Notes: generated from the letters alone by a model not told the origin. A stretch of DNA of 64,000 nt from Nitrospirota bacterium (GCA_963840455.1 CAWIYV010000014.1:288001-352000), one strand, 5' to 3'. Counted from the stretch's first letter, positions 6,154-47,281 are shown. Numbers and translations: made by a program.

Positions 6154-6207
6154 GGTCCGGTCGGGTACCCATGCTGTCCGCGCGCAGAACAATCGGGAGG
6201 CTGCACC

Positions 6208-25980: not shown

Positions 25981-26020
25981 CAGTAGAGGGTAGGTAGTAG
26001 GTAGTATATGGTAGGTAGGG
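25981..26020 (+). repeat. Left heptamer array (AGTAGGT-like) of the four-helix-bundle module
   Basis: CAGTAGAGGGTAGGTAGTAGGTAGTATATGGTAGGTAGG; inverted partner at 26410-26440. Confidence 0.7.
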
Positions 26021-26041
26021 AAGAGCAAAAGGGGATCAAAC

Positions 26042-26404
26042 ATGCGGCAAAAGGCCGAGAAATTTGAAGACCTGGAAGTGTGGCAGAAGGCGCACGGGTT
26101 GGTCCTCGAAACGTATAAAATTACCAAGATGTTTCCGAACGATGAAAAGTTCGGTTTAGTGTCGCAGATGCGGAGAGCTGCCGTGTCGGTCGCAGCGAAT
26201 ATAGCGGAAGGCTTCAAGAAGCGGGGAGTCAGGGATAAAGCGAATTTCTACAACATCGCCCAGGGGTCCTCGGAAGAGTTGCGATACTATTTTACATTGG
26301 CGAAGGACCTCGGGTATATAAGCACAAATGATCATTTCATGCAGGAGATCGAGGCCGTCGGCAAGATGCTCAGTAGCTTGATGAGCGCGATATTAGCACG
26401 ATAA
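26042..26404 (+). CDS. Four-helix-bundle protein (23S rRNA IVS/S23-like, TIGR02436-type)
   Basis: FEDLEVWQKAH, FP.DEKFGLVSQMRRAAVSV.ANIAEG, IAQGS..EL.Y...LA.DLGY; lower GC than flanks. Confidence 0.92.
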   Translation: MRQKAEKFEDLEVWQKAHGLVLETYKITKMFPNDEKFGLVSQMRRAAVSVAANIAEGFKKRGVRDKANFYNIAQGSSEELRYYFTLAKDLGYISTNDHFMQEIEAVGKMLSSLMSAILAR

Positions 26405-26409
26405 TTTCC

Positions 26410-26440
26410 CCCTATGCTGCCTACCACCTACTGTCTACTC
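26410..26440 (-). repeat. Right (inverted) heptamer array of the four-helix-bundle module
   Basis: CCTATGCTGCCTACCACCTACTGTCTACTC; its reverse complement resembles the left array. Confidence 0.65.
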
Positions 26441-26462
26441 CGGCTTTTCATGAGAAAAGCCA

Positions 26463-26759
26463 ATGTCTGACAAGGGCCTGAAAAAAGCCGTCATCATTGG
26501 CGCGGCGCTCGGCGCTGTCGTGACTCTCGGCGCTGCCATCTCGATGGATTATGTGCTGTCCAGCTCCCTGCAGGGTACGTGGCGGGACGCGGCGGTCAAG
26601 GACGTGACGAAGATGTTCGGCCCGTCCTGCGGCCAGAACTGGTTCGCCGTCACCTTGGTCCTTGTGGTGGTCATGGGATTCCTTGCCGGATTCGGCGCCA
26701 TGCTCGGCGCCATCGCCGGGACCATCATGAACCGTTTCTTCAAGCTCATCTTGAAATGA
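26463..26759 (+). CDS. Hypothetical small membrane protein
   Basis: 98 aa, 2-3 hydrophobic segments, genome-like codon usage; its TGA stop is the first bases of a MITE copy. Confidence 0.7.
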   Translation: MSDKGLKKAVIIGAALGAVVTLGAAISMDYVLSSSLQGTWRDAAVKDVTKMFGPSCGQNWFAVTLVLVVVMGFLAGFGAMLGAIAGTIMNRFFKLILK

Positions 26760-26873
26760 ATCCAGGAGTGAGCTCATTCCCCGTAGCTTGCTGCGGGGTT
26801 AGCGAACGATTAGAATAAATAGTTCTACCTTGAGGATCGAAGATTCCCTGCAGCTTGCTGCAGGGAGCTTCAA
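26757..26873 (-). mobile_element. Full copy of the ~117-bp double-hairpin MITE
   Basis: Colinear with 18403-18519, with few substitutions. Confidence 0.8.
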
Positions 26874-27122
26874 TCCTGCCTGATTCAGGACTTTTTTCAT
26901 AACAGCAACCGTTACTTTTTCATTCCTACCACTGATTCCGTCAGATCTTCCACTTATATCTTCTCAAGTTCAGGTCCTGTCTGGAAGTGTATGCTTCAAC
27001 CAGTAGACTAGCATTGTAATGGATGGCAGATTTTCACCATCTACAAGGCTGCAATTTCAGTCAGACGCAACTATCATCGAATACTGGTTGAAACATGCAC
27101 AGGAAAGAGCACCTCCCTATTC

Positions 27123-27584
27123 TTACTTTGTAGACCAACTCAGCCCGTCTCCTAATTCCAACTTGAGAGCGAGGAGCGATTGATTGATGTCATGAATAAA
27201 TGCAATCAGAGACCCGATCAGCGCCGCCAGGCAGCCCATAAACAGGAGGAGAATCAACCAGCCCGCATCCCAACGCAATAACGCGGCAAAAAACAAGCTG
27301 ATGATCAGCAAGGCCGCCAACAACACGCTGAGCAAAGCCAGGATGATGGCCCGGCGAAGGAGATAAGCGCGTCTGTGTAAAATCTGCAGTTGCGCTTCCG
27401 TCCGGTTATGATCCGCCTGAGCCTCGGCGCGCAGTGCGAGCTGCAGCTCGCGGGCACGGTCGATCACGCGGCCGAAACGGTTGGTCATGCTCAGGAGTAG
27501 CAAACCTACCCCAGAGATCAAGATCACCGGGCCGATCGCAATTTGCAGCACCGGTATAAGTTCAGACACGGAGGGAATGGACAT
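27123..27584 (-). CDS. DUF2721-family membrane protein
   Basis: IAIGPVILISGVGLLLLSMTNRFGRVIDRAR motif. Confidence 0.85.
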   Translation of the reverse strand: MSIPSVSELIPVLQIAIGPVILISGVGLLLLSMTNRFGRVIDRARELQLALRAEAQADHNRTEAQLQILHRRAYLLRRAIILALLSVLLAALLIISLFFAALLRWDAGWLILLLFMGCLAALIGSLIAFIHDINQSLLALKLELGDGLSWSTK

Positions 27585-27736
27585 ACCCGCCTCTTTTCAG
27601 TCAGTTCAGCAAACCAACAAGATATCGGTTCGAAATACCGTAGCATAGACCAAATGCAGGGTCAATGAATTTGAAAAAAAACATGACTTATCAAGCTGAA
27701 TTAATGAGACTTTGACCGAAAGACCAATATCCAATT

Positions 27737-27895
27737 TATGGAATAGTAAACAAAATAAATTAATATGCAGATATGGAATAGCTTATAAGAGGAGTTTCGA
27801 TGCAACCTATTCCGGATGACCTTCTGACGTAGTTTAATTCGGTTTTGAGCAGAAGGTGTCCCATCCTCATTGCGTGATGACTATCGGAATGGTCC
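27737..27895 (+). pseudogene. Possible decayed integron-integrase 5' end with upstream direct repeats
   Basis: TATGGAATAG twice (27737, 27772), AAGAGGAG RBS, ATG at 27800, MQPIPDDLLT*FNSVL, then VPSSLRDDYR after frame shifts. Confidence 0.3.
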
Positions 27896-28043
27896 GTTGA
27901 GAATCAGGCCTGGAAAGCTGGAATGTTGACCCCCTTCAGCCTGTAGCCTGCACTGTGTGGTGATCTGGCCCGACACTCGTCTTCAGGAAGTATATCGTGC
28001 TGCAAATTTCAATCCGTATTCTACACTAAATTCCATAAGGACT

Positions 28044-28898: not shown

Positions 28899-29963
28899 CT
28901 ATTGCTTGGCGCGCAGATATTGGACCGGCCAGGGAATATCGACCTTCAGGGCCTTCGCCGCTTCCAGGGGCCAGTAAGGATTGCGAAGCATCGCTCGCGC
29001 GAGAAAGACCACGTCAGCAAGACCGGTAGCCACAATCTGCTCAGCCTGTGCCGGGTCGGTGATGAATCCGACCGTGCCCGTTGCGATCCCCGCTTCCTTG
29101 CGAATAGCTGCGGCAAAAGGTGTCTGGAATCCGGGACCGGCAGGGATGACCGCATCCGGCACCAGTCCCCCTGATGAGCAGTCGATGAGGTCGATGCCCT
29201 GTTCCTTCAGCCGCCGGCAGAGCTCTACGGACTGCTCCAGGTCCCAGCCTCCTTCCGCCCAGTCCGTGGCCGATATGCGCACGAAGACCGGAAGGTCCTG
29301 AGGCCAGATGTCCCGAACTGCGCGGGTGATGCTCAGGGGAAAACGCATGCGGTTCTCAAGACCACCGCCATACTCATCCTTCCGAAGATTCGAGAGTGGC
29401 GAGAGGAACTCATGCAGCAGGTATCCATGCGCGAGATGGACCTCGATGACCTGGAATCCTGCGGCCCGTGCACGCCGGGCTGCAGCTTCGAACTGACTCC
29501 GGACGGCTTCCAGGTCTGCTGCTGTTGCTTCACGAGGCACAGGGTGGCCATGGGCAAAAGGCAGCGGGCTCGGCGCGATCGGCTGCCAGCCCCGCTGGTC
29601 CGGTCCCAGCGGTCCGCCGCCCTGCCAGGGCCGGTCCGTGGAGGCCTTGCGCCCGGCATGGGCGAGCTGGATGCCTGCTGCCGCGCCCTGCTCGCGGATG
29701 AAACGCGCGATCGGTGCGAACGCTTCGGCATGGGCGTCACTCCAGATGCCGCTGTCGTCGGGGCTGATCCGGCCCTCAGGGCTAACGGCCGTTGCTTCGA
29801 CCATCACCAGGCCCGCGCCTCCCACAGCACGGGATCCCAGGTGGACCAGATGCCAGTCACTGGGATAACCGTCGAGACTCGAATATTGACACATAGGGGA
29901 TACGAAGATACGGTTGCGAAACGTCAACGTGCGAAGCTGCAAAAGGGAAAACAAACGGCTCAT
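28899..29963 (-). CDS. NADH:flavin oxidoreductase (Old Yellow Enzyme, YqjM/NamA-like)
   Basis: NRIFVSPMCQYS, EATAVSPEGRIS, QLAHAGRKAS, HLAHGYLLHEFLSP, RISATDW. Confidence 0.92.
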   Translation of the reverse strand: MSRLFSLLQLRTLTFRNRIFVSPMCQYSSLDGYPSDWHLVHLGSRAVGGAGLVMVEATAVSPEGRISPDDSGIWSDAHAEAFAPIARFIREQGAAAGIQLAHAGRKASTDRPWQGGGPLGPDQRGWQPIAPSPLPFAHGHPVPREATAADLEAVRSQFEAAARRARAAGFQVIEVHLAHGYLLHEFLSPLSNLRKDEYGGGLENRMRFPLSITRAVRDIWPQDLPVFVRISATDWAEGGWDLEQSVELCRRLKEQGIDLIDCSSGGLVPDAVIPAGPGFQTPFAAAIRKEAGIATGTVGFITDPAQAEQIVATGLADVVFLARAMLRNPYWPLEAAKALKVDIPWPVQYLRAKQ

Positions 29964-30137
29964 AAACAGTTTCTCCAAGATGGGGTGTCAAATACAGAAT
30001 GAAACATTACGTGTTGCACCGAATAGAACCTATATAGCACAATTAAACGTAGGAGGAAGTAGCTATTTTCCAAAAACTATATCATAAAACGCACGCTACA
30101 AGATATTTGTGGGATTACCTAATTAGGCAATCTACCT

Positions 30138-30200
30138 TGGAAGGTTTCGCCGGATGGGGTGGAAGGTTTCCGTCGGATCAGTTTGTAGGATTTACGGGAT
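30138..30200 (+). repeat. ~22-bp period repeats resembling an IS21-family end remnant
   Basis: TGGAAGGTTTCGCCGGAT and TGGAAGGTTTCCGTCGGAT, plus a degenerate third unit. Confidence 0.4.
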
Positions 30201-30211
30201 TGAGCACGAAA

Positions 30212-30260
30212 CTACCTTGAGGATCGAAGATTCCCCGTAGCTTGCTGCGGGAAGCTTCGA
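30212..30260 (-). mobile_element. Half copy of the MITE
   Basis: CTACCTTGAGGATCGAAGATTCCCCGTAGCTTGCTGCGGGAAGCTTC. Confidence 0.75.
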
Positions 30261-30361
30261 TCAAATGAAAAGGAAGCCTTCACAGCCGGTCCTTTACGGT
30301 TCGATCCTGTCTATCTCATGCTTTTTTGTCCCCAAGCCCAGTCGCTCGGCCTCCCCTGATC

Positions 30362-31840
30362 TCAGGGCAGCCCTTTTTCGATCCGGTAGCGCCTGACGGT
30401 AACCTTGCGAACACGGTCCGCTTCGAGACCTTTCAGTTCCCCGACGCGATGGATCTTCATCATGTTCGTACTTCCGGCGACGCCGATGGGGACCCCCGCG
30501 GTGATCACGATCAGGTCGCGTTTTCGCGCCAGGTCCTTCTCGAGCATGATCGCCTCCACGCTCCTGATCATGTCATCGGTGGTCTTCTTTGTCTTCAGGA
30601 TGACCGGGATCACGCCCCAGTAGAGCGAGACCTTTCGCGCCACCCGCTCGAAGGGCGTAGGGGCGATGATGTCGGCGGCAGGCCGGTGCTTCGATACGAG
30701 GAGCGCGGTGCTGCCGGACTGGGTGAAGGTGACGATAGCGCGCACGTGCTGCTCGGCCGCGGCTCGGCAGGCCGCGTGGGCAACGCTCTCGTCAAGACCG
30801 CCGATGTGCTTGTCCGGCGGAATGGGGTCGAGGGAGGTCTCCGCCTGCACTGCGATGCGCGCCATGACCGATATGGCCTGGACAGGATGCTTCCCGACCG
30901 CCGTCTCGCCGGAGAGCATGACGCAGTCTGTCCCGTCCAGGATGGCGTTTGCCACGTCCGACGCCTCGGCCCGCGTGGGCTGGGGGTTCTCGATCATGCT
31001 TTCCAGCATCTGGGTGGCGGTGATGACCGGCTTTTCGGCGTCGTTGCAGGCGCGGATGATCAGTTTCTGGAGCAGCGGCACCTGCTCGGGCGACATCTCC
31101 ACGCCGAGGTCCCCCCGCGCGACCATGATGCCGTCGGCCGCCTGGATGATCTCATTGAGATTTCGAATGGCCTCGGGTTTCTCGATCTTTGCGATGATCG
31201 GGATATCCGCGCCGGCCTTCCGGATGAATGACCTCGTTGCCTCGATATCCGATGCGGAGCGGACAAAGGACAGTGCGATATAATCCACGCCCCGCCCGAT
31301 GCCGAACAGGATGTCCTGCCGGTCCTTCGGGGAGAGAGAAGGGAGGATTAGGTTCGCTCCCGGCAGGTTCACCCCTTTGTGGCTTTTCAGCGTGCCGCCG
31401 CGGATGACCTTGCACTGAAGTCCGCTGCCGCTCCTCCGAATGACCCTGAGCTCGAGCCTTCCATCGTCGAACAGCACGGTATCGCCTGGTCTCAGGTCCT
31501 TCGCAAGGCGGGGATAGGTAATGGAGATCAAGCTGCTCGTGCCAACGACCTTTTTTGCCGTGAGCGTCATGATAGCTCCCCGTTTCAGCGCCACGCCGTC
31601 ATTCTGCATGTTCCCGACCCGGAGCTTCGGTCCCTGGAGGTCCTGGATGATGGCGATGGGCTTGCCCGCCGATATCGACGCCTGCCGGATGAGCCGGATG
31701 CGGGTGATGTGGTCCTTCCGCTCGCCGTGGGAGAAATTTAGCCGCGCTGCATCCATGCCCGCATGGATGAGCTTCGCGATAACAGCTGGAGAACTGGACG
31801 CCGGGCCGATGGTGGCGATGATCTTGGTGCGTTTGGGCAT
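30362..31840 (-). CDS. pyk: Pyruvate kinase
   Basis: RTKIIATIGP, ARLNFSHG, DLQGPKLR, IAKIEKPEA, MVARGDLG, ATQMLESM, MLSGETA. Confidence 0.97.
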   Translation of the reverse strand: MPKRTKIIATIGPASSSPAVIAKLIHAGMDAARLNFSHGERKDHITRIRLIRQASISAGKPIAIIQDLQGPKLRVGNMQNDGVALKRGAIMTLTAKKVVGTSSLISITYPRLAKDLRPGDTVLFDDGRLELRVIRRSGSGLQCKVIRGGTLKSHKGVNLPGANLILPSLSPKDRQDILFGIGRGVDYIALSFVRSASDIEATRSFIRKAGADIPIIAKIEKPEAIRNLNEIIQAADGIMVARGDLGVEMSPEQVPLLQKLIIRACNDAEKPVITATQMLESMIENPQPTRAEASDVANAILDGTDCVMLSGETAVGKHPVQAISVMARIAVQAETSLDPIPPDKHIGGLDESVAHAACRAAAEQHVRAIVTFTQSGSTALLVSKHRPAADIIAPTPFERVARKVSLYWGVIPVILKTKKTTDDMIRSVEAIMLEKDLARKRDLIVITAGVPIGVAGSTNMMKIHRVGELKGLEADRVRKVTVRRYRIEKGLP

Positions 31841-31856
31841 GGTGTACCTCTTAGAT

Positions 31857-31981
31857 TCAGTAAACAGTATACGGTAGACAGTAAACGGGGGAAGCAAAGG
31901 AAGCCTTAGTCAGCACGCGGGAAACAAGTTTCCGCATTTGTTCCTCTCCCTGTCTACCGTTTACCGACTGCTGTTTACTGA
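31857..31981. repeat. Gene-less inverted heptamer array pair (CAGTAAA-type)
   Basis: TCAGTAAACAGTATACGGTAGACAGTAAACGG ... CTGTCTACCGTTTACCGACTGCTGTTTACTGA. Confidence 0.75.
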
Positions 31982-31982
31982 T

Positions 31983-33107
31983 TTATGGTTCTATGGTGAT
32001 CAGTTCATACTGCTTCGTTCCCAGACCCAGACGCTCGCACTCATCGATCTGGAGCTGCAGGGGACGGGGGTTGAGCTTCGCCAGGATATCGTCTCCCGGC
32101 CTCAGCTTCGCGTCCTCTGCCGCCGACTGGGGCAGGGGAGTCGCCTGCCGAAGCATGTCCACCGACGCCTGCTCGATGGCCACAAGGTCGTCGGAGACCA
32201 TAATGCCCTGATCCTGGACGACCGGCACGTCGGCCACGGGCATGCAGTCGCATTCGGGCTGGACCTGGAAGAGGAAGTTGACGTAGACCACCTTGCCCTT
32301 GTTGAAGGTGGAAAGCACTGCCGCGGCTGACTCGGCCATGCTCTTCATGAACGTCTCGTCGTCCTGTGGCAGCGTCAGCGCGCCTTCCTGGCAGACGCGC
32401 GAGCATCTGCCGCAGTGCCAGCAGGTCTCCCCGTCATAGGTGAACTCGTTGTCCTTGAACTCAATGGAGTCGAGCGGGCAGATCTCTGCGCACTGCTGGC
32501 AGCGGGTGCAGAGATCGCCGTTCCAGACGAGCCCCTTCTCGCCGTGGCAATGCATGCCGCCCCGGCCCTTCTGCCACCCCTGGTCGCGGTGCCTGCCGCT
32601 GACGCAGCCCATGGCCAGGTTCTTGATGGCGCCGGCATAGCCCGAGTTGATATGGCCCTTGGTGTGTGAACAGACCACCATGGCAGGCGCGTCATGGATG
32701 ACCGATGCCACGGCGATATCGCCGAGCAGGGGGCCGGCCTTCGTCAGGATGCTGTCCTTCCCGTACAACCCGTCGGCCAGCACCAGCGGCGCGCCGCAGG
32801 AGAGGTGGTTCAGGCCGTTCTGGTTCGCCACCTCGAGGTAATCGAGCCCCTTGATGCGCACCGTGTCGGTCACGAAGGGCTTGGCGCCGGTCCTGTTGAC
32901 CGCCTCCACGACCTTCCGAAGCATCACTGCAGGGATGATGCGGAACGCGCCCGGCGAGCCCCAGTGGGTCTTGACCGCGACCCAGTCATCCTTCGACAGC
33001 CGTTTTTTCAGGTCGAGCTTCTCGAGCAGCGCTTCGAGCTTGCCCGGCACGCTATTCTCGTAGTTCCAGCGGAGGGTGCGGGCGGTGGAAAAGTAGACTA
33101 GTGACAT
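31983..33107 (-). CDS. DUF362 domain protein with inserted 2x[4Fe-4S] ferredoxin
   Basis: VAVKTHWG, PFVTDT, SHTKGH..SGYAGAIKNLAMGC, two CxxCxxCxxxC motifs, PECDC, D.VAIEQAS. Confidence 0.88.
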   Translation of the reverse strand: MSLVYFSTARTLRWNYENSVPGKLEALLEKLDLKKRLSKDDWVAVKTHWGSPGAFRIIPAVMLRKVVEAVNRTGAKPFVTDTVRIKGLDYLEVANQNGLNHLSCGAPLVLADGLYGKDSILTKAGPLLGDIAVASVIHDAPAMVVCSHTKGHINSGYAGAIKNLAMGCVSGRHRDQGWQKGRGGMHCHGEKGLVWNGDLCTRCQQCAEICPLDSIEFKDNEFTYDGETCWHCGRCSRVCQEGALTLPQDDETFMKSMAESAAAVLSTFNKGKVVYVNFLFQVQPECDCMPVADVPVVQDQGIMVSDDLVAIEQASVDMLRQATPLPQSAAEDAKLRPGDDILAKLNPRPLQLQIDECERLGLGTKQYELITIEP

Positions 33108-33108
33108 A

Positions 33109-33948
33109 TCAACCCTCTTCCTTGATCATCAGTCCGATCTTGTAGATCTCTTTTTTCGGCATGCCGAGGTCGTGAGCGGCCACGGCGATCGCCTCCTTCT
33201 TGGGCAACCCCCGGTGCAGGATAAGGTTCTTGAGATACTCCTCGGGCGAGATGTTCACCCGGTCCGCTCCCGATGCAGTTGCCTCAACGATGATCGTGAA
33301 TTCGCCTTTCATGCTGCCCGCTTCGAGCTGCCTCCTGACATCAGGGATGCGACCCCGGAGGACCTGCTCGTGGACCTTGGTCAGTTCGCGGGTAAGGACC
33401 GCTTTCCGGTCGCCCAGGACCGTCTGCATGTCCTCGAGCGCCTGCATGATCCGGTGGGGGGCTTCGTAGAAAATGAGGGTGCGCTCTTCCTTGGCGAGCT
33501 CGGTGAGCCGTTTCATCCTGGCAGTATGCTTGCTCGGCAAAAATCCCTCGAACACGAACCGGTCCGTGGGCAGCCCGGACACGGACAGCGCGGCGATGGC
33601 AGCGGTTGCGCCGGGAATGGGGACCACGGGGACCTTCTGGTCTATGGCAAGGTTGATAAGGAAGTAGCCCGGGTCCGAAATGCCAGGTGTCCCTGCGTCG
33701 GAAACAAGCGCGATGCTCTTCCCTTCGAGAAGGCGGGAGACCAGGACCGGGGCCTTCTCTTCCTTGTTGTGGTCGTGGTAGCTCGTCAGCGGTGTGTGGA
33801 TATCGAACTTGGAGAGCAGTTTCTGGGTGTGGCGCGTGTCCTCAGCGGCGATGGCGTCCGCTTCTTTCAGGACGCGGATTGCCCGGAGGGTGATGTCCTC
33901 GAGGTTGCCGATGGGTGTGGCGACGATATAAAGAACACCAAGTGGCAT
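33109..33948 (-). CDS. rsmI: 16S rRNA (cytidine1402-2'-O)-methyltransferase
   Basis: LYIVATPIGNLEDIT, AAEDTRHT, SDAGTPGISDPG, FEGFLP, YEAPHR, RELTK.HE. Confidence 0.96.
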   Translation of the reverse strand: MPLGVLYIVATPIGNLEDITLRAIRVLKEADAIAAEDTRHTQKLLSKFDIHTPLTSYHDHNKEEKAPVLVSRLLEGKSIALVSDAGTPGISDPGYFLINLAIDQKVPVVPIPGATAAIAALSVSGLPTDRFVFEGFLPSKHTARMKRLTELAKEERTLIFYEAPHRIMQALEDMQTVLGDRKAVLTRELTKVHEQVLRGRIPDVRRQLEAGSMKGEFTIIVEATASGADRVNISPEEYLKNLILHRGLPKKEAIAVAAHDLGMPKKEIYKIGLMIKEEG

Positions 33949-33965
33949 AGGATTCAAGACCTTTT

Positions 33966-34078
33966 ACCGCGAGGGCGCGAAGAGCGCGAGGACTGCAAAG
34001 GCAAGGACATTTTGTGTTATTAACACCAGAAACAAGACGTTGACCTGTTTCCCCCTGCGTCCCTCGCGCCTTCGCGGT
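33966..34078. repeat. Inverted 9-mer-period repeat pair (ACCGCGAAGGCGCGAAG family)
   Basis: Arms at 33966-33991 and 34054-34078; near-identical single arm at 49957-49982. Confidence 0.7.
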
Positions 34079-34092
34079 GAGAACATTCCCTG

Positions 34093-35802
34093 CTAGTAGC
34101 TTCTGTACCGGTTCGTGATCGGGAACCTTCTGTCCTTCCCCAGCCCCCGCGGCGTGATCTTGACGCCCGGCGGCGCCTGTCTGCGCTTGTACTCGCTGGA
34201 ATCCACGAGCCGGATCACCTTCTCCACCGTCTTTCGGTCGAAGCCCATCTTCAGGATCTCGCGGAAGTCCTTATTGTCCTCTACATAGGCCTTCAGGATG
34301 GGGTCCAGCACGGGATAGAGGGGCAGGGAATCGCTGTCCTTCTGGTTCGGCCGCAGCTCGGCGGTCGGCGCCTTGGTCATGACCCGCTTCGGGATGATCG
34401 TCCTCCCTTCCAGGCGGTTCACGCACCGGCAGATGTCGTACACGAGGGTCTTGGGTACGTCCTTGATCACAGCGAACCCGCCTGCCATATCGCCGTAGAG
34501 CGTTGCGTAGCCCACGGACATCTCGCTCTTGTTCCCCGTGGTCAGCACGAGCCAGCCGAACTTGTTCGAGAGCGCCATGAGCAGATTTCCGCGGATGCGC
34601 GCCTGCAGGTTCTCCTCGGTCACGTCCTGCTTTGTCCGGGCGAACTCACAGCGCAGCGTATTGAGGTAGGAATCGAAGGTCTGCTGGATGGAGATCTCGA
34701 GGAAATGGATGCCGAGATTCTTCGCGAGCCCCAGGGCATCCTCGCGGCTCTCCCGGGAGCTGAACTGGGAAGGCATGAACACGCCGACCACGTTCTTGCT
34801 GCCGATCGCTTCCACGGCAACGGCCGCAACCAGGGAGGAATCGACGCCGCCGGACAGGCCTATCACCGCGGACTTGAACCCGGTCTTTTGGACATAATCA
34901 CGCGTGCCGAGCACGAGCGCCTGGTAGACCTCCTCACAGACAGGAAGGGGCCGGCTGGACTGCCGCGCGGAGACTGCCTTCCTTTTCGGCGCCGGCCGCT
35001 CGGAAAGGACGATGCGGTCGATGGATTCGAAATGCTGTGTCTTCGCTGGGCCGACCGCGGCCTTCCTGTCCGGGACCTTGAGGTCGGTGATCAGGAGGTC
35101 TTCCTCGAACTGCCGTCCCGATACGAGCAGTCTGCCTTTTCCGTCGATGACCATGCTCTGACCGTCGAAGACCAGCTCATCCTGGCCGCCCACAGCATTG
35201 GTGTAGGACACGATGACGTTGCTCTCTCTCGCCCGTTCAGCGAGCATCTTGAGCCGTTCTTTGCCCTTTCCTTTGTGGTAAGGAGAGGCATTGATGTTGA
35301 TAATCACCTCGGCGCCTGCCAGGGCAAGGGAGCGCGTGGGTCCTTCGCTGAACCAGATGTCCTCGCAGATGTTCACGCCGAGCTTTATTCCCCACAAGGT
35401 GATGAGGGGATAGCGGTTCCCGGGACGGAAATAGCGGTACTCGTCGAAGACACCGTAGTTCGGCAGCAGGATCTTGTGGTACACAGATGCCAGGCTCCCA
35501 TTGTGGAGGATTGCCGCTGCGTTGTACAGCCGCTCCTTCTTGTCGACAAACCCGACAACAGCGGTGATGCCCCTGGTCGCCCGTTGGATGTCCTTGAGCG
35601 TCCTCAGGTTGTCATTCACGAACTGCGGCTTGAGCAGCAGGTCCTCGGGGGGATAGCCGGTCACGGCGAGCTCGGGGAAGGCCACGATGTCGGCCCCGGC
35701 CTTCCGGGCGCGGCCGATCGTTTCGATGATCCGGTCCCGATTGCCGGCGAGGTCGCCGACCGTGGGGTTGATCTGTGCCATGGCAATGCGAAGGGTTCTC
35801 AT
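34093..35802 (-). CDS. nadE: Glutamine-dependent NAD+ synthetase
   Basis: Nitrilase domain (FPELAVTGYPPEDL, NICEDIW), GLSGGVDS, ENLQARIRG, TGNKSE, TAELRPNQ.D.DSLP. Confidence 0.96.
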   Translation of the reverse strand: MRTLRIAMAQINPTVGDLAGNRDRIIETIGRARKAGADIVAFPELAVTGYPPEDLLLKPQFVNDNLRTLKDIQRATRGITAVVGFVDKKERLYNAAAILHNGSLASVYHKILLPNYGVFDEYRYFRPGNRYPLITLWGIKLGVNICEDIWFSEGPTRSLALAGAEVIININASPYHKGKGKERLKMLAERARESNVIVSYTNAVGGQDELVFDGQSMVIDGKGRLLVSGRQFEEDLLITDLKVPDRKAAVGPAKTQHFESIDRIVLSERPAPKRKAVSARQSSRPLPVCEEVYQALVLGTRDYVQKTGFKSAVIGLSGGVDSSLVAAVAVEAIGSKNVVGVFMPSQFSSRESREDALGLAKNLGIHFLEISIQQTFDSYLNTLRCEFARTKQDVTEENLQARIRGNLLMALSNKFGWLVLTTGNKSEMSVGYATLYGDMAGGFAVIKDVPKTLVYDICRCVNRLEGRTIIPKRVMTKAPTAELRPNQKDSDSLPLYPVLDPILKAYVEDNKDFREILKMGFDRKTVEKVIRLVDSSEYKRRQAPPGVKITPRGLGKDRRFPITNRYRSY

Positions 35803-35942
35803 AAACTCGCGCGCAGATGAATATTCTCTATGCCATTATCTCGCAACGACACGAAGACACAAAGACCGAATGCTATCTTTCGCAGGGGCGCAGAGAGCGC
35901 AGAGAAAATCGTTCGTTTTACTACGGTTGCTATAGGCAATGT

Positions 35943-37106
35943 TTATTGATGGAGCGAACGTTTCGCGGACTCCATGACTTCCTTTACAGGCACTTTTTTC
36001 ACATCGGCGATCCGCCGGCAGTCATCATACTCCGGTGTGACGGTCATGATCTCATCGCCCCGTCTGCTGATCTTGACGCGGACTGTTCCGTAGGAGGTCT
36101 CCACCTGCCGGACCTCGCGCTGGAGCTTCTTCCTGCCCGTTTCACGGATACGGACGCCGATGCTGGTCGTTTCCCGGAAGAGCGTGTCCAGCACCGCGTC
36201 GCTGCTCTTGCGGTCGCACAGGACGGATAGGAGGATGCCGGGCCTGCCCTTTTTCATGATGATGGGCGTGAGATAGGCGTCCTGCGCACCCTGCGCGAGA
36301 AGCTTTTCGATCACGTGGTCGTAGAGCTGAGGATTCATATCATCGATGTTCGTCTCGATCAGCGTTGACGTGTCCTCGTCGTAAACGGGGAGGAGCTCCC
36401 CGATCATCAAACGAAGCACGTTCGGCTGGCCGGAGAAGTCCTTGTTCCCTGCGCCATGGGCGATCCTGTTGACCTTCATCTGCGGCAACAGCCCGAACGA
36501 TGCCGCGAGCGTGCTGATGATTGCAGCCCCCGTCGGGGTTGTGAGCTCGAAGGCTATGGATGATGAGTAGAGCGGGATGTTCCTGAGCAGTTCAACAGTG
36601 GCAGGTGCGGGAACGGGCAGTTTCCCATGGGCCATATGGACCGTGCCCGAACCTACATTGACCGGAGAACCAATGATCTCGGTGATACCGAGGTGCTCGA
36701 GCCCGATGACCGAACCGACAATGTCCACCAAGGCGTCCACCGCGCCGACCTCGTGGAAGTGGACCCGGTCGGGGGTAGTGCCGTGGACCTTCGCTTCGAC
36801 CTCGGCCAGCCGATGGAAGATGGCCAGGCTCTTCTGTTGAATTACAGGGGAGAGGGACGAGCCATTGATGATGCGGCTGATGTCAGCAAGGTGGCGGGCA
36901 GGCTGTTCCTTCTTATCCAGGACGACATGGACCTTTGTGGCCGAGATGCCCGACCGCCTTACCTTCTCGCTCGAGAGCGTATAACCGGTGAGGTCAAGCT
37001 TCGCGAGCTCCGCGCGCAGAACCTCAAGGGGAAACCCTGCGTCCACGAGGGCGCCCAGGGTCATATCGCCGGAGATGCCGGAAAAACAGTCGAAGTAGGC
37101 TAGCAT
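35943..37106 (-). CDS. larC: Nickel-pincer cofactor Ni insertase
   Basis: YFDCFSGISGDM.LGAL, HFHEVGAVD, ELTTPTGAA, ETNIDDMNP, MKKGRPG, ETTSIGVR, PEYDDC. Confidence 0.93.
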   Translation of the reverse strand: MLAYFDCFSGISGDMTLGALVDAGFPLEVLRAELAKLDLTGYTLSSEKVRRSGISATKVHVVLDKKEQPARHLADISRIINGSSLSPVIQQKSLAIFHRLAEVEAKVHGTTPDRVHFHEVGAVDALVDIVGSVIGLEHLGITEIIGSPVNVGSGTVHMAHGKLPVPAPATVELLRNIPLYSSSIAFELTTPTGAAIISTLAASFGLLPQMKVNRIAHGAGNKDFSGQPNVLRLMIGELLPVYDEDTSTLIETNIDDMNPQLYDHVIEKLLAQGAQDAYLTPIIMKKGRPGILLSVLCDRKSSDAVLDTLFRETTSIGVRIRETGRKKLQREVRQVETSYGTVRVKISRRGDEIMTVTPEYDDCRRIADVKKVPVKEVMESAKRSLHQ

Positions 37107-37116
37107 TATAACACCA

Positions 37117-37195
37117 TTCAACGTTCAAGATTTAAGGTAAAAGGATCAACGTTCAATATCCATTCTTTAAACCTTGAACGTTCAACCTTAGAATT
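37117..37195. repeat. Gene-less inverted heptamer arrays (TTCAACG-type)
   Basis: TTCAACG TTCAAGA TTTAAGG ... ATCAACG TTCAA, then CTTTAAAC CTTGAAC GTTCAAC CTTAGAA. Confidence 0.6.
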
Positions 37196-37198
37196 CCG

Positions 37199-37954
37199 TT
37201 ATTTCTCTCCCAGCAGGTTTATCCTATGCGCCAGGACTCCGGCGCCGAAGCCGTTGTCGATGTTCATGACCGCGATGCCCGAGGAGCAGGAGTTCAGCAT
37301 GGTGAGGAGCGGGGCAAGTCCCTGGAACCCTGCGCCGTAGCCGATGCTTGTCGGCACAGCGATGATCGGCCTGTCAACCAGCCCGCCCACGACAGACGGT
37401 AGGGCGCCGTCCATGCCCGCGACCACGACGATGACGCGCGCGGAATCAAGAATGGTCTTCTTGCTCAGGATGCGGTGGATGCCTGCCACGCCCACATCAT
37501 ACACGGTCTGGACCGTACTGCCCAGTGTCCCGGCGGTCACTGCGGCCTCTTCGGCAATGGGAATATCGGAGGTCCCTGCGGTGAGAACAAGGACGACCCC
37601 TGCGGTCAGGTCCTTCTTATTGTGTTCAATAACGATCGCCCGCGATGACTTATAATAGACCGCGCGGCGGTCCAGTTTTTTTACCGCCTTGAACACGGCG
37701 TCAGATGCCCGGGTGGCAAGGATATCGCTGCCCGCCTTCAGCATGCGTTTGGTGATGCCGGTGATCTGCCCGATGGTCTTGCCCTCGCAGTAGATCACCT
37801 CGGGCATGCCGTGGCGCAGGCCCCGGTGGTGGTCGATGTGGGCGTAGGCCACGTCCTCGAAGGGGAGGTGCTTCAATCGGCCAAGGGCCGCCTGCACGGT
37901 GATCCTTCCGGACCGGACCTGTTCAAGCAATTTGGTAATATCGGATGGGTTCAT
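37199..37954 (-). CDS. larB: Nickel-pincer cofactor NaAD carboxylase/hydrolase
   Basis: DHHR..R.G.PEVIYCEGKT, AGTSDIPIAEEA, DVGVAGIHR, AGMDGALPSVVGGL, PTSIGYG, NIDNGFGA. Confidence 0.95.
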   Translation of the reverse strand: MNPSDITKLLEQVRSGRITVQAALGRLKHLPFEDVAYAHIDHHRGLRHGMPEVIYCEGKTIGQITGITKRMLKAGSDILATRASDAVFKAVKKLDRRAVYYKSSRAIVIEHNKKDLTAGVVLVLTAGTSDIPIAEEAAVTAGTLGSTVQTVYDVGVAGIHRILSKKTILDSARVIVVVAGMDGALPSVVGGLVDRPIIAVPTSIGYGAGFQGLAPLLTMLNSCSSGIAVMNIDNGFGAGVLAHRINLLGEK

Positions 37955-38064
37955 AATTTGAATTTTCGAGCGAACAACATGGTTATAACCACGTATCCCG
38001 CCGTGCGGGAAACAGGGAATATTTATGGTTTCATACTATAATTGGCATTATATGACTTTCCTAT

Positions 38065-38148
38065 CGTCATTTCCGCAGGTATTTTGAGCGGATCCAGTCT
38101 CGATCTTCTTAAACAATGGATCCCCGATAAAGGCCTGCGGGGATGACG
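38065..38148. repeat. GTCATxCCCG...GGATGAC palindromic element
   Basis: CGTCATTTCCGCAGG / CCTGCGGGGATGACG outer inverted repeat; inner GGATCCA / TGGATCC. Confidence 0.65.
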
Positions 38149-38258
38149 TTCGGTGTATTTACAAATAATTTCGAGACCATTCATAACAGAGAATGAAGTG
38201 CAATTCTGTTCTCAAGTCTTAACCGTGTGCGACGAGATCGCCCGTGATCAGACCATCG

Positions 38259-39398
38259 TTAGTTATAATATTTCTTTTTCCGCGGCACCGGCTGGTCGCC
38301 GCACACCTCGATGACCTCTTTCGCCTTTGGCTTTAGCCTGGCGATCTCCGGCCGGTCGTTCTTCTTTGTGTACATCAGGAGCCGCTTCATGTAGCCCACG
38401 GCCAGCCGGCAGTTCCCGCCTGCCTTGTGGGTGAGGCCCGTCTGGAAGAGCATCTGAGGCTGGTTGGGCCGCTTGTGTTCGATGACGCGGAACTCCCTGA
38501 GCGCCTCCTGGAGCTTTCCCTGCTCCCGGAGGACGATGCCGAGCCGCAGGTGCAGCAGGGCATTGTTCGGCGCGCGCTGGAGCGCCGCGCGCAGCTCCGT
38601 CTCAGCGGCGGTGTTGTCGTGCTGCTGGTGATGGATCGAGGCGAGCAGGATACGGGCGCGCACGTTGCCCGGGTCCCGGGCGATGGCCTTTTGGAGGGCA
38701 GCGGTCGACGCGTCTATGTCTGCTGCCGGTATCTCCTGGCGGCTTTCCCCTCCGCCGTAGAAATCGATCCGGGGAGAGAGCCGCACCCAGGCCCGGTTCG
38801 TGTCATCCATGCTTTCTTCGGTGGTGAGCACCGAGTCGAGCTTCTTGCGCGTCTCCGCTGCCTTTGCCTTGTCCTGCTCCGCGGCAAGCCGCTTCTGCAG
38901 GGCGTCACGCTCCTTCCGGAGCGCTTCCTTCTCCTTCGCCGCTGATTCGAGCTGTTCCCGTAGCTCCTCGCTCTCCCGGTAGCGATCGATCTGTTGAACC
39001 AGCACATCCGTGTCCACGCGGCACCGGGCCTTGATGTAGAGCGCGGGATGGTCAAGGGTGCCGCGCGTCTCGTCGGCAATGACCTCGGTCTCGACGATAC
39101 CGGCCGTGTAGGCCGTGACCTGGTCCTTGGTGAGCCGGTATTCTTTCACCTGGGTGATGCTCGCCACATAGGTGCCGGCACGTTCCAGTGCTTTCCACTG
39201 CGCCTCCTGGGTCGCGATGCGCCGGCCGTCCACCTTGCTGTCGCTGTCGCCCATGATATAGGTGCTGTCCGCTTCGATGACCTTCACCTCGGCACGGGCG
39301 GAGTGCCAGGGCAGAACTGCAACACTAATTGCAAGCAGGATGAATGAAAACCATTTATACAAGGTCGTTTTTTCCCAATTCCGCATTCCGAGCACCAC
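38259..39398 (-). CDS. Exported TPR-repeat protein with coiled coil (start uncertain)
   Basis: Signal-like segment, ALERAGTYVAS.T.V domain, coiled coil, C-terminal TPRs. Confidence 0.75.
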   Translation of the reverse strand: MVLGMRNWEKTTLYKWFSFILLAISVAVLPWHSARAEVKVIEADSTYIMGDSDSKVDGRRIATQEAQWKALERAGTYVASITQVKEYRLTKDQVTAYTAGIVETEVIADETRGTLDHPALYIKARCRVDTDVLVQQIDRYRESEELREQLESAAKEKEALRKERDALQKRLAAEQDKAKAAETRKKLDSVLTTEESMDDTNRAWVRLSPRIDFYGGGESRQEIPAADIDASTAALQKAIARDPGNVRARILLASIHHQQHDNTAAETELRAALQRAPNNALLHLRLGIVLREQGKLQEALREFRVIEHKRPNQPQMLFQTGLTHKAGGNCRLAVGYMKRLLMYTKKNDRPEIARLKPKAKEVIEVCGDQPVPRKKKYYN

Positions 39399-39427
39399 AC
39401 CCTGAACCCTGTACCCTCTGTACTGCT

Positions 39428-40429
39428 CTACTCCCCCTTAAGCGCCCTGCTCATCAGGTCCTTCAGGGCGAGCCGCGGGTCCTTGCCCTCGTAGATGATG
39501 CGGTAGACCTCGTCGACCACGGGCATCTCGACGGAATGCTTCCGGGCAAGCTCGCGCGTGGCCTTGGCGGTCTTGACGCCCTCGGCAACAGTCGGGAGGC
39601 CTTTCATGATGTCCTCGAACAGCTCTCCTTTCCCGAGTCTGACGCCCAGGGTGCGGTTCCGGGAAAGGCCGCCGGTGCAGGTGAGCACGAGGTCGCCCAT
39701 GCCTGCGAGGCCAGAGAAGGTGAGGGGATTGGCGCCCATGGCAACGCCGAGGCGGGTCATTTCGGCGAGGCCGCGGGTCAGGAGCGCCGCCATGGTGTTG
39801 TACCCGTAGCCGAGGCCTTCCAGCACTCCTGCGGCGATGGCGATCACGTTCTTGACCGAGCCGCCGAGCTCCACGCCGATGACGTCGGGATTGGTATAGA
39901 CGCGGAAATAGGGCGCGCTCATGAGCTGCTGCGCCCGCCTGCCCGCCTCGGGGTCGTACGACGCGAGAGCAACGGCCGTGGGCATCTTCTGGGCCACTTC
40001 CTTGGCGAAGCTGGGGCCTGAGAGGAAGCAGAGACGACCATGGAACTTCGGGGGGAGCGTTTCCCGGAACACGTCCGACAGGGGCATGAGGGTCTCGGTC
40101 TCGATGCCTTTCGATGCGCTCACGATGACCGCGTTATTGTCGAGGAAGGGCGCCATGTGGGCCGATATTGCCCGGGCTGTGTGCGACGGGACCACGGACA
40201 GGATGAAGGGCCGTTCCCGGACCGCTCTATCCAGGGCGGCATTGACCGAGATGTTCGCGGGGAGCGTGAATCCCGGGAGGTAGACGCGGTTCTCTCGCGT
40301 GCGCTGGGTCTCCTCCGCAAGGTCCTTCTCGTACATCCAGAGGGTCACGTCATGGCCCCTGTCCGCCAGAAGGAGCGCCAGCGCCGTGCCCCATGCGCCG
40401 GCGCCGATAATACCTATTTTTTCAGCCAT
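39428..40429 (-). CDS. gpsA: NAD(P)H-dependent glycerol-3-phosphate dehydrogenase
   Basis: GAGAWGTALA, SKGIE, LSGPSFA.EV, GVELGG..KNVIAI, GDLVLTC, SRNR. Confidence 0.97.
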   Translation of the reverse strand: MAEKIGIIGAGAWGTALALLLADRGHDVTLWMYEKDLAEETQRTRENRVYLPGFTLPANISVNAALDRAVRERPFILSVVPSHTARAISAHMAPFLDNNAVIVSASKGIETETLMPLSDVFRETLPPKFHGRLCFLSGPSFAKEVAQKMPTAVALASYDPEAGRRAQQLMSAPYFRVYTNPDVIGVELGGSVKNVIAIAAGVLEGLGYGYNTMAALLTRGLAEMTRLGVAMGANPLTFSGLAGMGDLVLTCTGGLSRNRTLGVRLGKGELFEDIMKGLPTVAEGVKTAKATRELARKHSVEMPVVDEVYRIIYEGKDPRLALKDLMSRALKGE

Positions 40430-47154: not shown

Positions 47155-47218
47155 TTTCACCTTCCTTCCCGGGAATGCACGGCGAAACGGTCTCAATTCG
47201 CCCCACGAGGAGCGGCAT

Positions 47219-47281
47219 GGATAACGCGCGGGTGAGACGCGCGTCCCTTGCGCGTCGGACTCGACCCGCTGGGTGTTCTAC
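47219..47281 (-). mobile_element. attC-like site downstream of rsgA
   Basis: GTAGAAC-ACCCA-GCGGGTCGAGTCCGACGCGC-AAGGGA-CGCGCGTCTCACCCGC-GC-GTTATCC: imperfect palindrome with bulged bases, overlapping the stop codon. Confidence 0.6.

What the first reader, a model, noticed from the sequence alone, without database searches (positions are those of the whole stretch)
31983..37954. Candidate new nickel-pincer (NPN) enzyme: DUF362-ferredoxin with a LarA-like H-x9-K motif in the larB-larC-nadE run
Seen: larB, larC, nadE, rsmI, DUF362-2x[4Fe-4S] and pyk are co-oriented with short gaps; no larA or larE is in the window. The DUF362 protein has HINSGYAGAIK (~32622-32654). Established: in L. plantarum LarA, His174 is catalytic and Lys184 tethers NPN; as I recall the segment reads HFFAGFSGGRK, the same H-x3-G-aromatic-x-G-x2-K pattern. 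Many genomes have larBC(E) without larA, implying unknown NPN users. Inference: DUF362 proteins may be LarA-fold NPN enzymes whose Fe-S clusters turn hydride transfer into net oxidoreduction (e.g. 2-hydroxyacid/pyruvate, given pyk), or may help insert sulfur. Caveat: the H/K motif is general to DUF362 and the linkage could be incidental.
Basis: partly seen in the sequence, partly recalled or inferred. Interest (0 to 1): 0.7.

Follow-up and report, generated by a model that had tools for sequence, protein, structure and literature searches.

The report
LarA-like DUF362 ferredoxin protein beside larBC
A gene of unknown function next to nickel-cofactor genes does share lactate racemase's fold and cofactor-holding residues, but it sits there only in close relatives, so nickel-pincer use remains an untested idea.

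Summary
larB, larC, nadE, rsmI, a DUF362 protein with an inserted 2x[4Fe-4S] ferredoxin domain, and pyk lie co-oriented on the minus strand. The window has no larA or larE. HINSGYAGAIK sits at 32622-32654.

All Foldseek hits listed through rank 17 (13 rows) are LarA-family structures. A profile-profile alignment (E 4.6e-6) puts H152, K162 and H186 on LarA His174, Lys184 (cofactor tether) and His200 (nickel ligand). All three are kept in 111 of 119 family members, mostly with LarA's spacings. The homology itself is in print: Pfam clan CL0471, and DUF362 served as outgroup for a LarA tree.

The gene-context argument fails. Among orthologue loci with at least 6 kb upstream, larB and larC are present in 9 of 13 close relatives (73-97% identity) and in 0 of 36 distant ones (62-68%). 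Mobile elements interrupt the run in some relatives, and pyk linkage is equally shallow. LarA's Asp72, Arg75 and His108 are not kept, and the family has its own invariant Cys-Asp-Cys.

Best reading: an ordinary DUF362-ferredoxin oxidoreductase with an unidentified cofactor. Nickel-pincer use is open, at roughly 0.2-0.25. Other non-LarA pincer enzymes were published in 2026.

The parts
37199..37954 (-). larB (nickel-pincer cofactor biosynthesis, carboxylase/hydrolase acting on NaAD)
   Evidence: NF033503 283 bits against a cut-off of 175; PF00731
35943..37121 (-). larC (nickel insertion), with LarC1 and LarC2 in one ORF
   Evidence: PF01969 505 bits; TIGR00299 217.8 bits and NF052512 159.9 bits
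34093..35802 (-). nadE, glutamine-dependent NAD+ synthetase (nitrilase domain plus PP-loop domain). It uses NaAD, the same substrate as LarB.
   Evidence: NF010588 744 bits. The only LarE-like signal in the window is its PP-loop segment.
33109..33957 (-). rsmI, 16S rRNA C1402 2'-O-methyltransferase. Its stop codon lies 1 base from the DUF362 start codon.
   Evidence: TIGR00096 287 bits; coordinates
31983..33107 (-). DUF362 protein (374 aa) with a nested 2x[4Fe-4S] ferredoxin domain; LarA-like fold
   Evidence: PF04015 127 bits and Fer4 families. AF2 pLDDT 96.5. The Foldseek rows listed through rank 17 (13 rows) are all LarA-family structures.
32622..32666 (-). HTKGHINSGYAGAIK: H148, H152 (aligned to LarA His174) and K162 (aligned to LarA Lys184)
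   Evidence: Translation; hhalign. Conservation: H148 115/119, H152 114/119, K162 116/119.
32550..32552 (-). H186, aligned to the LarA nickel ligand His200. The window protein has an 8-residue insert before it.
   Evidence: H186 is kept in 117/119. The K-to-H spacing is 16 in 107 of the 116 sequences that have both.
32964..32972 (-). K46-T-H48, a family-specific conserved strand end that aligns to LarA Ile69-Ser71
   Evidence: K46 118/119 and H48 113/119; alignment
32370..32528 (-). Ferredoxin insert, residues about 194-246, with two CxxCxxCxxxC motifs
   Evidence: Fer4 hits. Of the eight Cys, C200, C210, C229 and C235 are invariant and C203, C206, C232 and C239 are kept in at least 90%.
32244..32252 (-). 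C286-D287-C288, nearly invariant in the ferredoxin-bearing subfamily and absent from the second DUF362
   Evidence: Translation. 117, 116 and 116 of 119.
30362..31897 (-). pyk, pyruvate kinase. The real start is probably residue 20 of the ORF; that is my reading of the sequence.
   Evidence: TIGR01064 574 bits

Best explanation
The gene at 31983-33107 encodes a typical member of the ferredoxin-bearing branch of the DUF362 family, from an uncultured Nitrospirota bacterium.

Shown: it has the two-lobed LarA-like fold, with a 2x[4Fe-4S] ferredoxin domain inserted between the lobes. Its N-terminal lobe is homologous to the LarA N-terminal domain. It keeps the equivalents of LarA Arg109, His174, Lys184 and His200.

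Inferred: it is a ferredoxin-coupled oxidoreductase. Electrons pass through the two clusters to or from a prosthetic group or metal held in the inter-lobe cleft. That cleft would be lined by K46/H48, R84, H148/H152, K162 and H186, and probably C286-D287-C288. The identity of that group is not established. I rate something other than the nickel-pincer nucleotide as more likely than the pincer itself.

The gene's position after larB-larC-nadE-rsmI is a lineage-specific gene order and not a functional lar cluster. The older, recurrent neighbours are nadE and rsmI, which are housekeeping genes. larB-larC joined upstream of nadE only in the window's own subclade. There, the link that makes biochemical sense is larB with nadE, since both use NaAD (established knowledge, also stated in PMC13524815 section 6).
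For: Family and fold. PF04015 plus Fer4. AF2 model pLDDT 96.5, pTM 0.94. In the Foldseek search of the PDB, 18 matches had E <= 0.001, and all 13 rows listed through rank 17 are LarA-family entries (6c1w, 9q3k, 8ezf, 9eia, 2yjg, 9eid, 7s91, 8ezh, 4nar, 5huq, 9q3j, 6d6z), E 4.6e-6 to 5.7e-4.

Residue mapping. hhalign of 119 DUF362-Fer4 proteins against 10 LarA homologues gave probability 86%, E 4.6e-6 over 161 columns. It pairs H152 with His174, K162 with Lys184, H186 with His200 and R84 with Arg109. One relative, P0194, scores on Pfam Lar_N exactly at its cut-off (23.3 bits) over this same segment.

Own signature. K46 118/119, H48 113/119, H148 115/119, C286 117/119, D287 116/119, C288 116/119.

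Context. Of the 80 orthologue loci from genome contigs, 49 have at least 6 kb upstream. larB and larC are present in 9 of the 13 with 73-97% identity and in 0 of the 36 with 62-68% identity. nadE and rsmI are present in 9 of 13 and 10 of 36. Four close relatives with a full 10 kb upstream (L014, L015, L018, L019) lack the whole set. In relatives the run is split by an IS integrase (L010), a Vsr-Dcm-Eco29kI restriction-modification system (L017), and GIY-YIG and PD-(D/E)XK nuclease genes. Other neighbours of the orthologues are varied housekeeping genes: a PUA-SAM methyltransferase in 16 of 73 loci, ArgJ in 12 of 73, Crp in 12 of 73.

No LarA or LarE was found in the window or in the 80 loci.
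Against: - The very residues that in LarA tether the cofactor and bind nickel are kept, with LarA's spacings: H-to-K of 10 in 107 of 111 and K-to-H of 16 in 107 of 116. No other role for them is known, which favours the pincer reading.
- The 72% identity split was chosen after seeing the gap in the identity distribution.
- 77 of the 80 loci carry Nitrospirota-type record names, so the synteny test is phylogenetically narrow. It also says nothing about lar genes elsewhere in those genomes.
- rsmI and the DUF362 gene are 1 base apart here, so co-transcription with the upstream genes is possible.
- I could not inspect model coordinates, so placing the conserved residues in one cleft is an inference.
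- TM-scores to LarA are low (0.30-0.41). I attribute this to the inserted domain and lobe orientation, but did not show it.
Confidence: 0.6

Rival explanations
1. The DUF362-ferredoxin protein binds the nickel-pincer nucleotide made by LarB, LarC and an unlinked LarE, tethered at K162 with nickel ligated by H186. It couples hydride transfer at the pincer to one-electron transfer through the two [4Fe-4S] clusters, giving net ferredoxin-dependent oxidation or reduction of a substrate.
For: - The His-Lys-His triad aligns in register with LarA His174/Lys184/His200. All three are present in 111 of 119 family members, with LarA's spacings.
- LarA-like fold.
- K184 and H200 are two of the three residues named as contacting the cofactor in LarA (PMC7583248, passage read).
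- About 15% of genomes are reported to have larB, larE and larC without larA (PMC11796402, passage read).
- In this subclade the gene follows larB-larC in 9 of 13 loci.
- One 2.63-Mb Acetoanaerobium record has larB-larC, no LarA hit and a DUF362-Fer4 gene, though the two lie 820 kb apart.
Against: - 0 of 36 more distant orthologue loci have larB or larC within 10 kb.
- LarA Asp72, Thr74 and Arg75 align to W49, S51 and P52, and His108 has no histidine counterpart.
- The C-terminal halves show no profile similarity.
- The family has its own invariant K46, H48, H148 and Cys-Asp-Cys.
- No larE is in the window or in the 80 loci.
- No fusion with a Lar domain was seen among the long relatives. Four of the long forms have unassigned N-terminal extensions, and the single hit among proteins over 655 aa carries a peptidase C11 domain. 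This is weak evidence.
- DUF362-CBM9-dockerin proteins are reported (PMC5742341, passages read). I infer these are extracellular and hard to load with a cofactor made in the cytoplasm. I did not check whether they keep the triad.
- A published search of 2,108 LarC neighbourhoods lacking LarA highlighted NAD(P)H-type oxidoreductases (PMC13524815, sections 6 and 18). That study set LarA-like proteins aside, so it is not a fair test.
Confidence: 0.22
2. The protein helps make the cofactor by inserting sulfur, standing in for the LarE that is missing from the window.
For: No larE in the window. Fe-S clusters and a conserved Cys-Asp-Cys are present. Some LarE forms are said to carry a [4Fe-4S] cluster (PMC11796402, passage read).
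Against: The protein has no PP-loop or ATP-binding domain. It does not travel with larB-larC outside the close subclade. larE may simply lie elsewhere in the genome.
Confidence: 0.03
3. Its function is tied to pyridine-nucleotide metabolism through nadE and not through lar. For example, it could act on or bind a nicotinate-derived molecule other than the nickel pincer.
For: nadE-rsmI is the neighbour pair that recurs in both close (9 of 13) and distant (10 of 36) orthologue loci. In three distant loci (L052, L069, L074) the rsmI match ends 36-38 bases before the DUF362 match. The LarA fold holds a nicotinate-derived cofactor.
Against: rsmI, which lies between them, is unrelated to NAD. 26 of 36 distant loci lack the pair. 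Conserved order of housekeeping genes needs no shared function.
Confidence: 0.05
4. It is an electron carrier or redox sensor with no catalytic centre of its own.
For: The only cofactor sites certain from sequence are the two ferredoxin clusters.
Against: About 25 non-ferredoxin positions are at least 90% conserved, many of them His, Lys, Cys or Asp. Orthologues keep 62-97% identity across the 80 loci. That pattern fits an enzyme active site.
Confidence: 0.07

Closest known systems
LarA / lactate racemase superfamily (Pfam Lar_N PF09861, formerly DUF2088; COG3875): nickel-pincer-dependent 2-hydroxyacid racemases and epimerases
   Same: - Overall fold: all Foldseek rows listed through rank 17.
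- Homologous N-terminal domain: hhalign E 4.6e-6.
- Equivalents of Arg109, His174, Lys184 and His200, and the glycines of H-x3-G-x2-G-x2-K-x4-G.
- The same Pfam clan, CL0471 (PMC11770544 and PMC7955657, passages read).
   Different: - No Lar_N hit for the window protein, even at E <= 10.
- Asp72, Thr74, Arg75 and His108 are not kept.
- The C-terminal lobe is not alignable by profile.
- A ferredoxin domain is inserted.
- It has an extra invariant K46, H48, H148 and Cys-Asp-Cys.
- No evidence of the cofactor. LarA enzymes are redox-neutral isomerases with no Fe-S clusters (recalled).
DUF362 (PF04015) proteins with a nested ferredoxin, named 'uncharacterized Fe-S center protein' by some sources
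   Same: Full-length match at 127 bits. The nested Fer4 architecture is as described for the family in PMC7955657 (passage read). There are 2,704 relatives with E <= 0.001 among the 50%-identity representatives.
   Different: Nothing material. The window protein has an 8-residue insert between K162 and H186 that 107 of 116 relatives lack.
NphT, the aldo-keto-reductase-fold enzyme using the nickel pincer mononucleotide (PMC13524815)
   Same: It is a non-racemase candidate nominated because it lies next to cofactor biosynthesis genes, and it has a Lys/His pair proposed to tether the cofactor and bind nickel.
   Different: NphT has a TIM-barrel fold and experimental proof (+450 Da adduct, 1.3 A structure). 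Its candidates lie in clusters holding LarB, LarC and LarE. Here the fold is LarA-like, larE is absent from the window, the linkage is shallow, and there is no experiment.
The second DUF362 protein of this window (4240-5232, with a Tat signal)
   Same: Same family (PF04015, 176 bits) and the same His-Lys-His triad (hhalign against the ferredoxin-bearing family: probability 96.8%, E 2.1e-10).
   Different: It has no ferredoxin insert and no Cys-Asp-Cys. It carries a twin-arginine signal. It lies in a different gene cluster, with a membrane polyferredoxin and a rhodanese.

Membership tests
LarA superfamily (nickel-pincer racemases/epimerases) | Match to the Lar_N (PF09861) / LarA family models | tested here: not met
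   No Lar_N hit at E <= 0.001 or at E <= 10. NCBIfam gave only ferredoxin-type hits. One distant relative, P0194, reaches the Lar_N cut-off.
LarA superfamily (nickel-pincer racemases/epimerases) | LarA two-lobe fold | tested here: met
   All Foldseek rows listed through rank 17 (13 rows) are LarA-family structures, probability 1.00, E 4.6e-6 to 5.7e-4. TM-scores are only 0.30-0.41.
LarA superfamily (nickel-pincer racemases/epimerases) | Cofactor-tethering Lys184 and nickel-ligand His200 | tested here: met
   K162 and H186 align to them. They are kept in 116/119 and 117/119, with a spacing of 16 in 107 of 116. This is sequence equivalence only; geometry was not checked.
LarA superfamily (nickel-pincer racemases/epimerases) | Two catalytic histidines, His108 and His174 | tested here: inconclusive
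   H152 aligns to His174. His108 falls in a gap of the window protein and at a non-conserved family position. LarA-like enzymes with a single catalytic histidine exist (PDB 9q3k title).
LarA superfamily (nickel-pincer racemases/epimerases) | Asp72/Arg75 and the substrate-binding Tyr294/Gln295/Lys298 | tested here: not met
   Asp72, Thr74 and Arg75 align to W49, S51 and P52. The C-terminal halves have no significant profile match (the greedy extension is unreliable).
LarA superfamily (nickel-pincer racemases/epimerases) | Bound nickel-pincer nucleotide | not testable with these tools
   This needs protein chemistry.
DUF362 (PF04015), ferredoxin-bearing branch | Full-length PF04015 match with a nested 2x[4Fe-4S] domain | tested here: met
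   127 bits against a cut-off of 24, over residues 43-317. Fer4 at 194-246. Of the eight cluster Cys, four are invariant and four are kept in at least 90%.
lar (nickel-pincer biosynthesis/utilisation) gene cluster | larB, larC and larE together | tested here: not met
   larB and larC are present. No larE is in the window or in the 80 related loci.
lar (nickel-pincer biosynthesis/utilisation) gene cluster | Conserved linkage of the candidate user gene with lar genes across lineages | tested here: not met
   9 of 13 close loci against 0 of 36 distant orthologue loci with at least 6 kb upstream. Mobile elements are inserted in the run.

The most novel reading that the evidence does not exclude
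DUF362 proteins as a whole, including this ferredoxin-bearing one and the Tat-exported one in the same window, are a second large branch of enzymes using the nickel pincer or a pincer-like cofactor. The cofactor would be held by the Lys and His inherited from the common ancestor with LarA. In the ferredoxin-bearing branch the pincer would be wired to [4Fe-4S] clusters. That turns LarA-type hydride chemistry into net ferredoxin-dependent oxidoreduction, which would be a new kind of nickel enzyme.
Probability: 0.22. Interest if true: 0.85.

Novelty: new member of a known kind. Interest (0 to 1): 0.42.

Why it matters
If DUF362 proteins used the nickel-pincer cofactor, a large family of unknown function would gain a cofactor and a testable chemistry. 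The family has 2,704 relatives with E <= 0.001 among the 50%-identity representatives for this branch alone. It would also explain part of the roughly 15% of genomes reported to make the cofactor without having LarA (PMC11796402).

The finding I can stand behind is narrower. LarA's tether lysine and nickel histidine are conserved in register across DUF362. I found no paper that says so in the full-text searches. This makes a cheap decisive experiment worth doing.

The window itself adds little to that argument, because its lar linkage is a local accident of gene order.

Tried and rejected
- Sequence searches of the PDB did not reach LarA. I tried the whole protein, which hit only ferredoxins. 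I also tried its first 190 residues, the second DUF362 and a 40-sequence profile of the N-terminal part. Only chance-level hits came back. Fold comparison and profile-profile comparison were needed.
- An AF2 model of residues 1-190 alone, built with a shallow alignment, failed (pLDDT 43). I did not use it for a fold search.
- hhalign of the C-terminal halves gave nothing. The greedy full-length extension is low-confidence, and I do not use its placement of Cys-Asp-Cys.
- hhalign of the shallow alignment of the second DUF362 directly against LarA was not significant.
- The ESM Atlas search with DUF362 clusters excluded gave no usable hit.
- The search for longer fused forms found one protein, DUF362 plus peptidase C11. 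Pfam scans of 16 longer relatives found no Lar domain.
- Promoter and terminator scans of 30000-39600 were no better than shuffles.
- The plasmid collection holds only 4 records with a relative of this protein. That is too few for a co-occurrence test.
- Supplements of PMC13524815: no PF04015 or DUF362 in the files that could be read. One file timed out and eight were too large, so a Pfam co-occurrence table may exist unseen.
Full report
What is there.

The minus strand of 30362-37954 carries six co-oriented genes: larB (37199-37954), larC (35943-37121), nadE (34093-35802), rsmI (33109-33957), a 374-aa DUF362 protein (31983-33107) and pyk (30362-31897). The gaps between them are 77, 140, 135, 1 and 85 bases. 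The assignments are strong. LarB scores 283 bits against a cut-off of 175. LarC scores 505 bits on PF01969 and contains both LarC1 and LarC2. The glutamine-dependent NAD synthetase scores 744 bits and RsmI 287 bits. DUF362 scores 127 bits against a cut-off of 24, with a two-cluster ferredoxin domain nested at residues 194-246. Pyruvate kinase scores 574 bits.

No LarA or LarE family hit appeared in the ORFs of the whole window. A six-frame tblastn with five LarA homologues and one LarE found only the PP-loop of nadE. The motif HINSGYAGAIK is at 32622-32654. Names given to close relatives place the organism in uncultured Nitrospirota.

Is the LarA resemblance real?

Yes. An AlphaFold2 model built on 119 family members is confident (pLDDT 96.5, pTM 0.94). 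Searched against the PDB, every row listed through rank 17 (13 rows) is a LarA-family structure: L. plantarum LarA 5huq/6c1w/8ez*, 2yjg, malate racemase 6d6z/7s91, 9eia/9eid, 4nar and 9q3j/9q3k. E-values run from 4.6e-6 to 5.7e-4. TM-scores are only 0.30-0.41. No closer structure exists in that library, so no DUF362 protein appears to have been solved.

For a residue-level test I needed LarA sequences from a tool. I found lar operons on plasmids by searching with the window's LarC. From there I fetched ten LarA homologues. One is L. plantarum LarA, which matches PDB 6c1w/5huq over residues 3-424 in the same numbering, with one mismatch seen against 6c1w. In their alignment R75, H108, H174, K184 and H200 are invariant, matching the residues named in PMC7583248 (passages read).

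Profile-profile comparison of the DUF362-ferredoxin family with this LarA set gives probability 86% and E 4.6e-6 over 161 columns, covering DUF362 residues 17-195 and LarA residues 40-207. The pairs it produces:
- H152 with His174.
- K162 with Lys184.
- H186 with His200, after an 8-residue insert peculiar to the window's lineage.
- R84 with Arg109.
- The motif glycines G156, G159 and G167 with Gly178, Gly181 and Gly189.

In the family these residues are strongly kept. H152 is present in 114/119, K162 in 116/119, H186 in 117/119, and all three in 111/119. The H-to-K spacing is 10 in 107 of 111, and the K-to-H spacing is 16 in 107 of 116, exactly as in LarA. One relative even scores on Pfam's Lar_N model at its cut-off over this segment.

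The second DUF362 protein of this window (4240-5232) has no ferredoxin and carries a Tat signal, yet it keeps the same triad.

What does not match LarA.

LarA's Asp72, Thr74 and Arg75 align to W49, S51 and P52. Arg75 is one of the three residues said to contact the cofactor. The family instead has a conserved K46-x-H48-x-G50 there. His108 has no histidine counterpart. The C-terminal lobes show no profile similarity. The family has its own nearly invariant H148 and C286-D287-C288; the Cys-Asp-Cys is absent from the ferredoxin-less DUF362. The protein does not meet the Lar_N family model. It works on a LarA-like scaffold, but it is not a member of the LarA family as currently defined.

Does the neighbourhood mean anything?

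I fetched 80 orthologue loci at 62-97% identity. Of these, 77 carry Nitrospirota-type names, two are 'uncultured bacterium' and one is 'Chloroflexota'. I located the window's genes in them by tblastn.

Of the 49 loci with at least 6 kb upstream, larB and larC are present in 9 of the 13 with 73-97% identity. They are present in 0 of the 36 with 62-68% identity. I chose this split after seeing the gap in the identity distribution. nadE and rsmI persist in 9 of 13 and 10 of 36. Four close relatives with a full 10 kb upstream have none of these genes.

pyk lies downstream in 15 of 19 close loci. Among 52 distant loci it appears in only 2, and both are upstream on the other strand. In relatives the run is broken by an IS integrase, a Vsr-Dcm-Eco29kI system, and GIY-YIG and PD-(D/E)XK nuclease genes.

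Across the 73 loci where my script called the ORF (7 were dropped), the commonest neighbours are rsmI (19), pyk (16), a PUA-SAM methyltransferase (16), nadE (13), an unassigned 138-aa protein (13), ArgJ (12) and Crp (12). These are a mixed housekeeping set with no consistent partner.

The linkage to larB-larC is therefore shallow and best read as an accident of gene order. The biochemically sensible link within the run is larB-larC with nadE, since LarB and NadE both consume NaAD. This test is confined to one phylum. It cannot see lar genes elsewhere in those genomes.

What is known.

DUF362 and DUF2088 (LarA N-terminal) already share Pfam clan CL0471, the 'DUF362-like superfamily'. A LarA phylogeny used ten DUF362 sequences as outgroup (PMC11770544, passages and section 4 read; PMC7955657, passages read). 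The latter paper also describes ferredoxin motifs nested in DUF362.

About 15% of genomes are reported to have larB, larE and larC but no larA (PMC11796402, passages read). Two non-LarA users are now published. One is an aldo-keto-reductase-fold hydride transferase, found by mining LarC neighbourhoods that lack LarA. The other is an ornithine cyclodeaminase using a pincer dinucleotide (PMC13524815; abstract and sections 4, 6, 15 and 18 read). That study deliberately looked for proteins unlike LarA.

I found no paper proposing or testing the pincer cofactor in DUF362:
- A search for 'DUF362' returned 14 papers, several of them hits on longer DUF numbers such as DUF3627.
- COG2006, COG2768 and IPR007160 returned 5 papers.
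- PF04015, CL0471 and DUF2088 returned 11 papers.
The readable supplements of PMC13524815 hold no PF04015, but several files could not be read. PMC5742341 (passages read) reports DUF362-CBM9-dockerin proteins. I infer these are extracellular, which sits badly with a cofactor made in the cytoplasm. I did not check their motifs.

Verdict.

The gene is an ordinary member of the ferredoxin-bearing DUF362 family. Most likely it is a ferredoxin-coupled oxidoreductase whose active site lies in the LarA-like cleft, but the prosthetic group there is unknown.

The gene-context argument and the pyruvate guess are not supported. The central claim of nickel-pincer use is untested. I put it at about 0.2-0.25. 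The conserved tether lysine and nickel histidine argue for it. The shallow linkage, the missing Arg75, Asp72 and His108, and the family's own Cys/His signature argue against it.

The experiment is simple: co-express the protein with LarB, LarE and LarC, then measure mass and nickel content.

Noticed in passing
window 2846-8098 (+): A second DUF362 gene cluster, co-oriented with short gaps or overlaps: MFS transporter (2846-4243), DUF362 with a twin-arginine signal (4240-5232; MDRRTFLK begins at ORF residue 31), alpha/beta hydrolase (5260-6153), NapH-like polyferredoxin (6208-7800) and rhodanese (7772-8098). It looks like a periplasmic DUF362 enzyme wired to a membrane Fe-S protein. This DUF362 keeps the His-Lys-His triad but not the Cys-Asp-Cys.
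   Followed up: partly
L010:8559-9425; L017:7461-9747; L009:4725-5018; L002:5623-6003: In related genomes the larB-larC-nadE-rsmI-DUF362 run is interrupted by selfish DNA: an IS integrase, a Vsr-Dcm-Eco29kI restriction-modification system, a GIY-YIG nuclease and a PD-(D/E)XK nuclease.
   Followed up: partly
P0194 (680 aa): A distant DUF362-ferredoxin relative scores on Pfam Lar_N exactly at its gathering cut-off (23.3 bits) over residues 446-498, the His-Lys-His segment. It and three other long forms (P0141, P0149, P0176) have N-terminal extensions of 230-480 aa with no Pfam match.
   Followed up: no
L091 and L092 (NZ_CP154629.1, Acetoanaerobium noterae, 2.63 Mb record filed as a plasmid): larB-larC followed by an amidohydrolase, with no LarA hit on the record. 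A DUF362-ferredoxin gene lies 820 kb away, next to another amidohydrolase and a glycyl-radical enzyme pair. This is one larA-less, larC-positive, DUF362-positive replicon, but the genes are unlinked.
   Followed up: partly
window 35943-37121 (-): LarC is a single uninterrupted ORF containing both LarC1 and LarC2. In L. plantarum the two parts are joined by a frameshift (recalled).
   Followed up: no
window 45514-46236 (-); L015:9125-9877: There is an isochorismatase-family gene in the window, possibly a nicotinamidase; that is my guess. Its homologue sits directly upstream of the DUF362-ferredoxin gene in relative L015, after an OYE flavoenzyme gene like the one at window 28899-29978.
   Followed up: no
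window 8301-17036 (+): A 2,911-aa protein with two GH94 supersandwich stretches, a GH94 catalytic domain and a glucoamylase-like domain.
   Followed up: no
window 26001-28000 and 46001-48000: Two stretches of low G+C (0.50 and 0.49, against about 0.60 elsewhere). The first holds a gene for a 23S rRNA intervening-sequence protein at 26042-26404.
   Followed up: no
L037:7504-8388: In one distant relative, a homologue (63% identity) of the window's second, Tat-type DUF362 lies between rsmI and the ferredoxin-bearing DUF362 gene.
   Followed up: no
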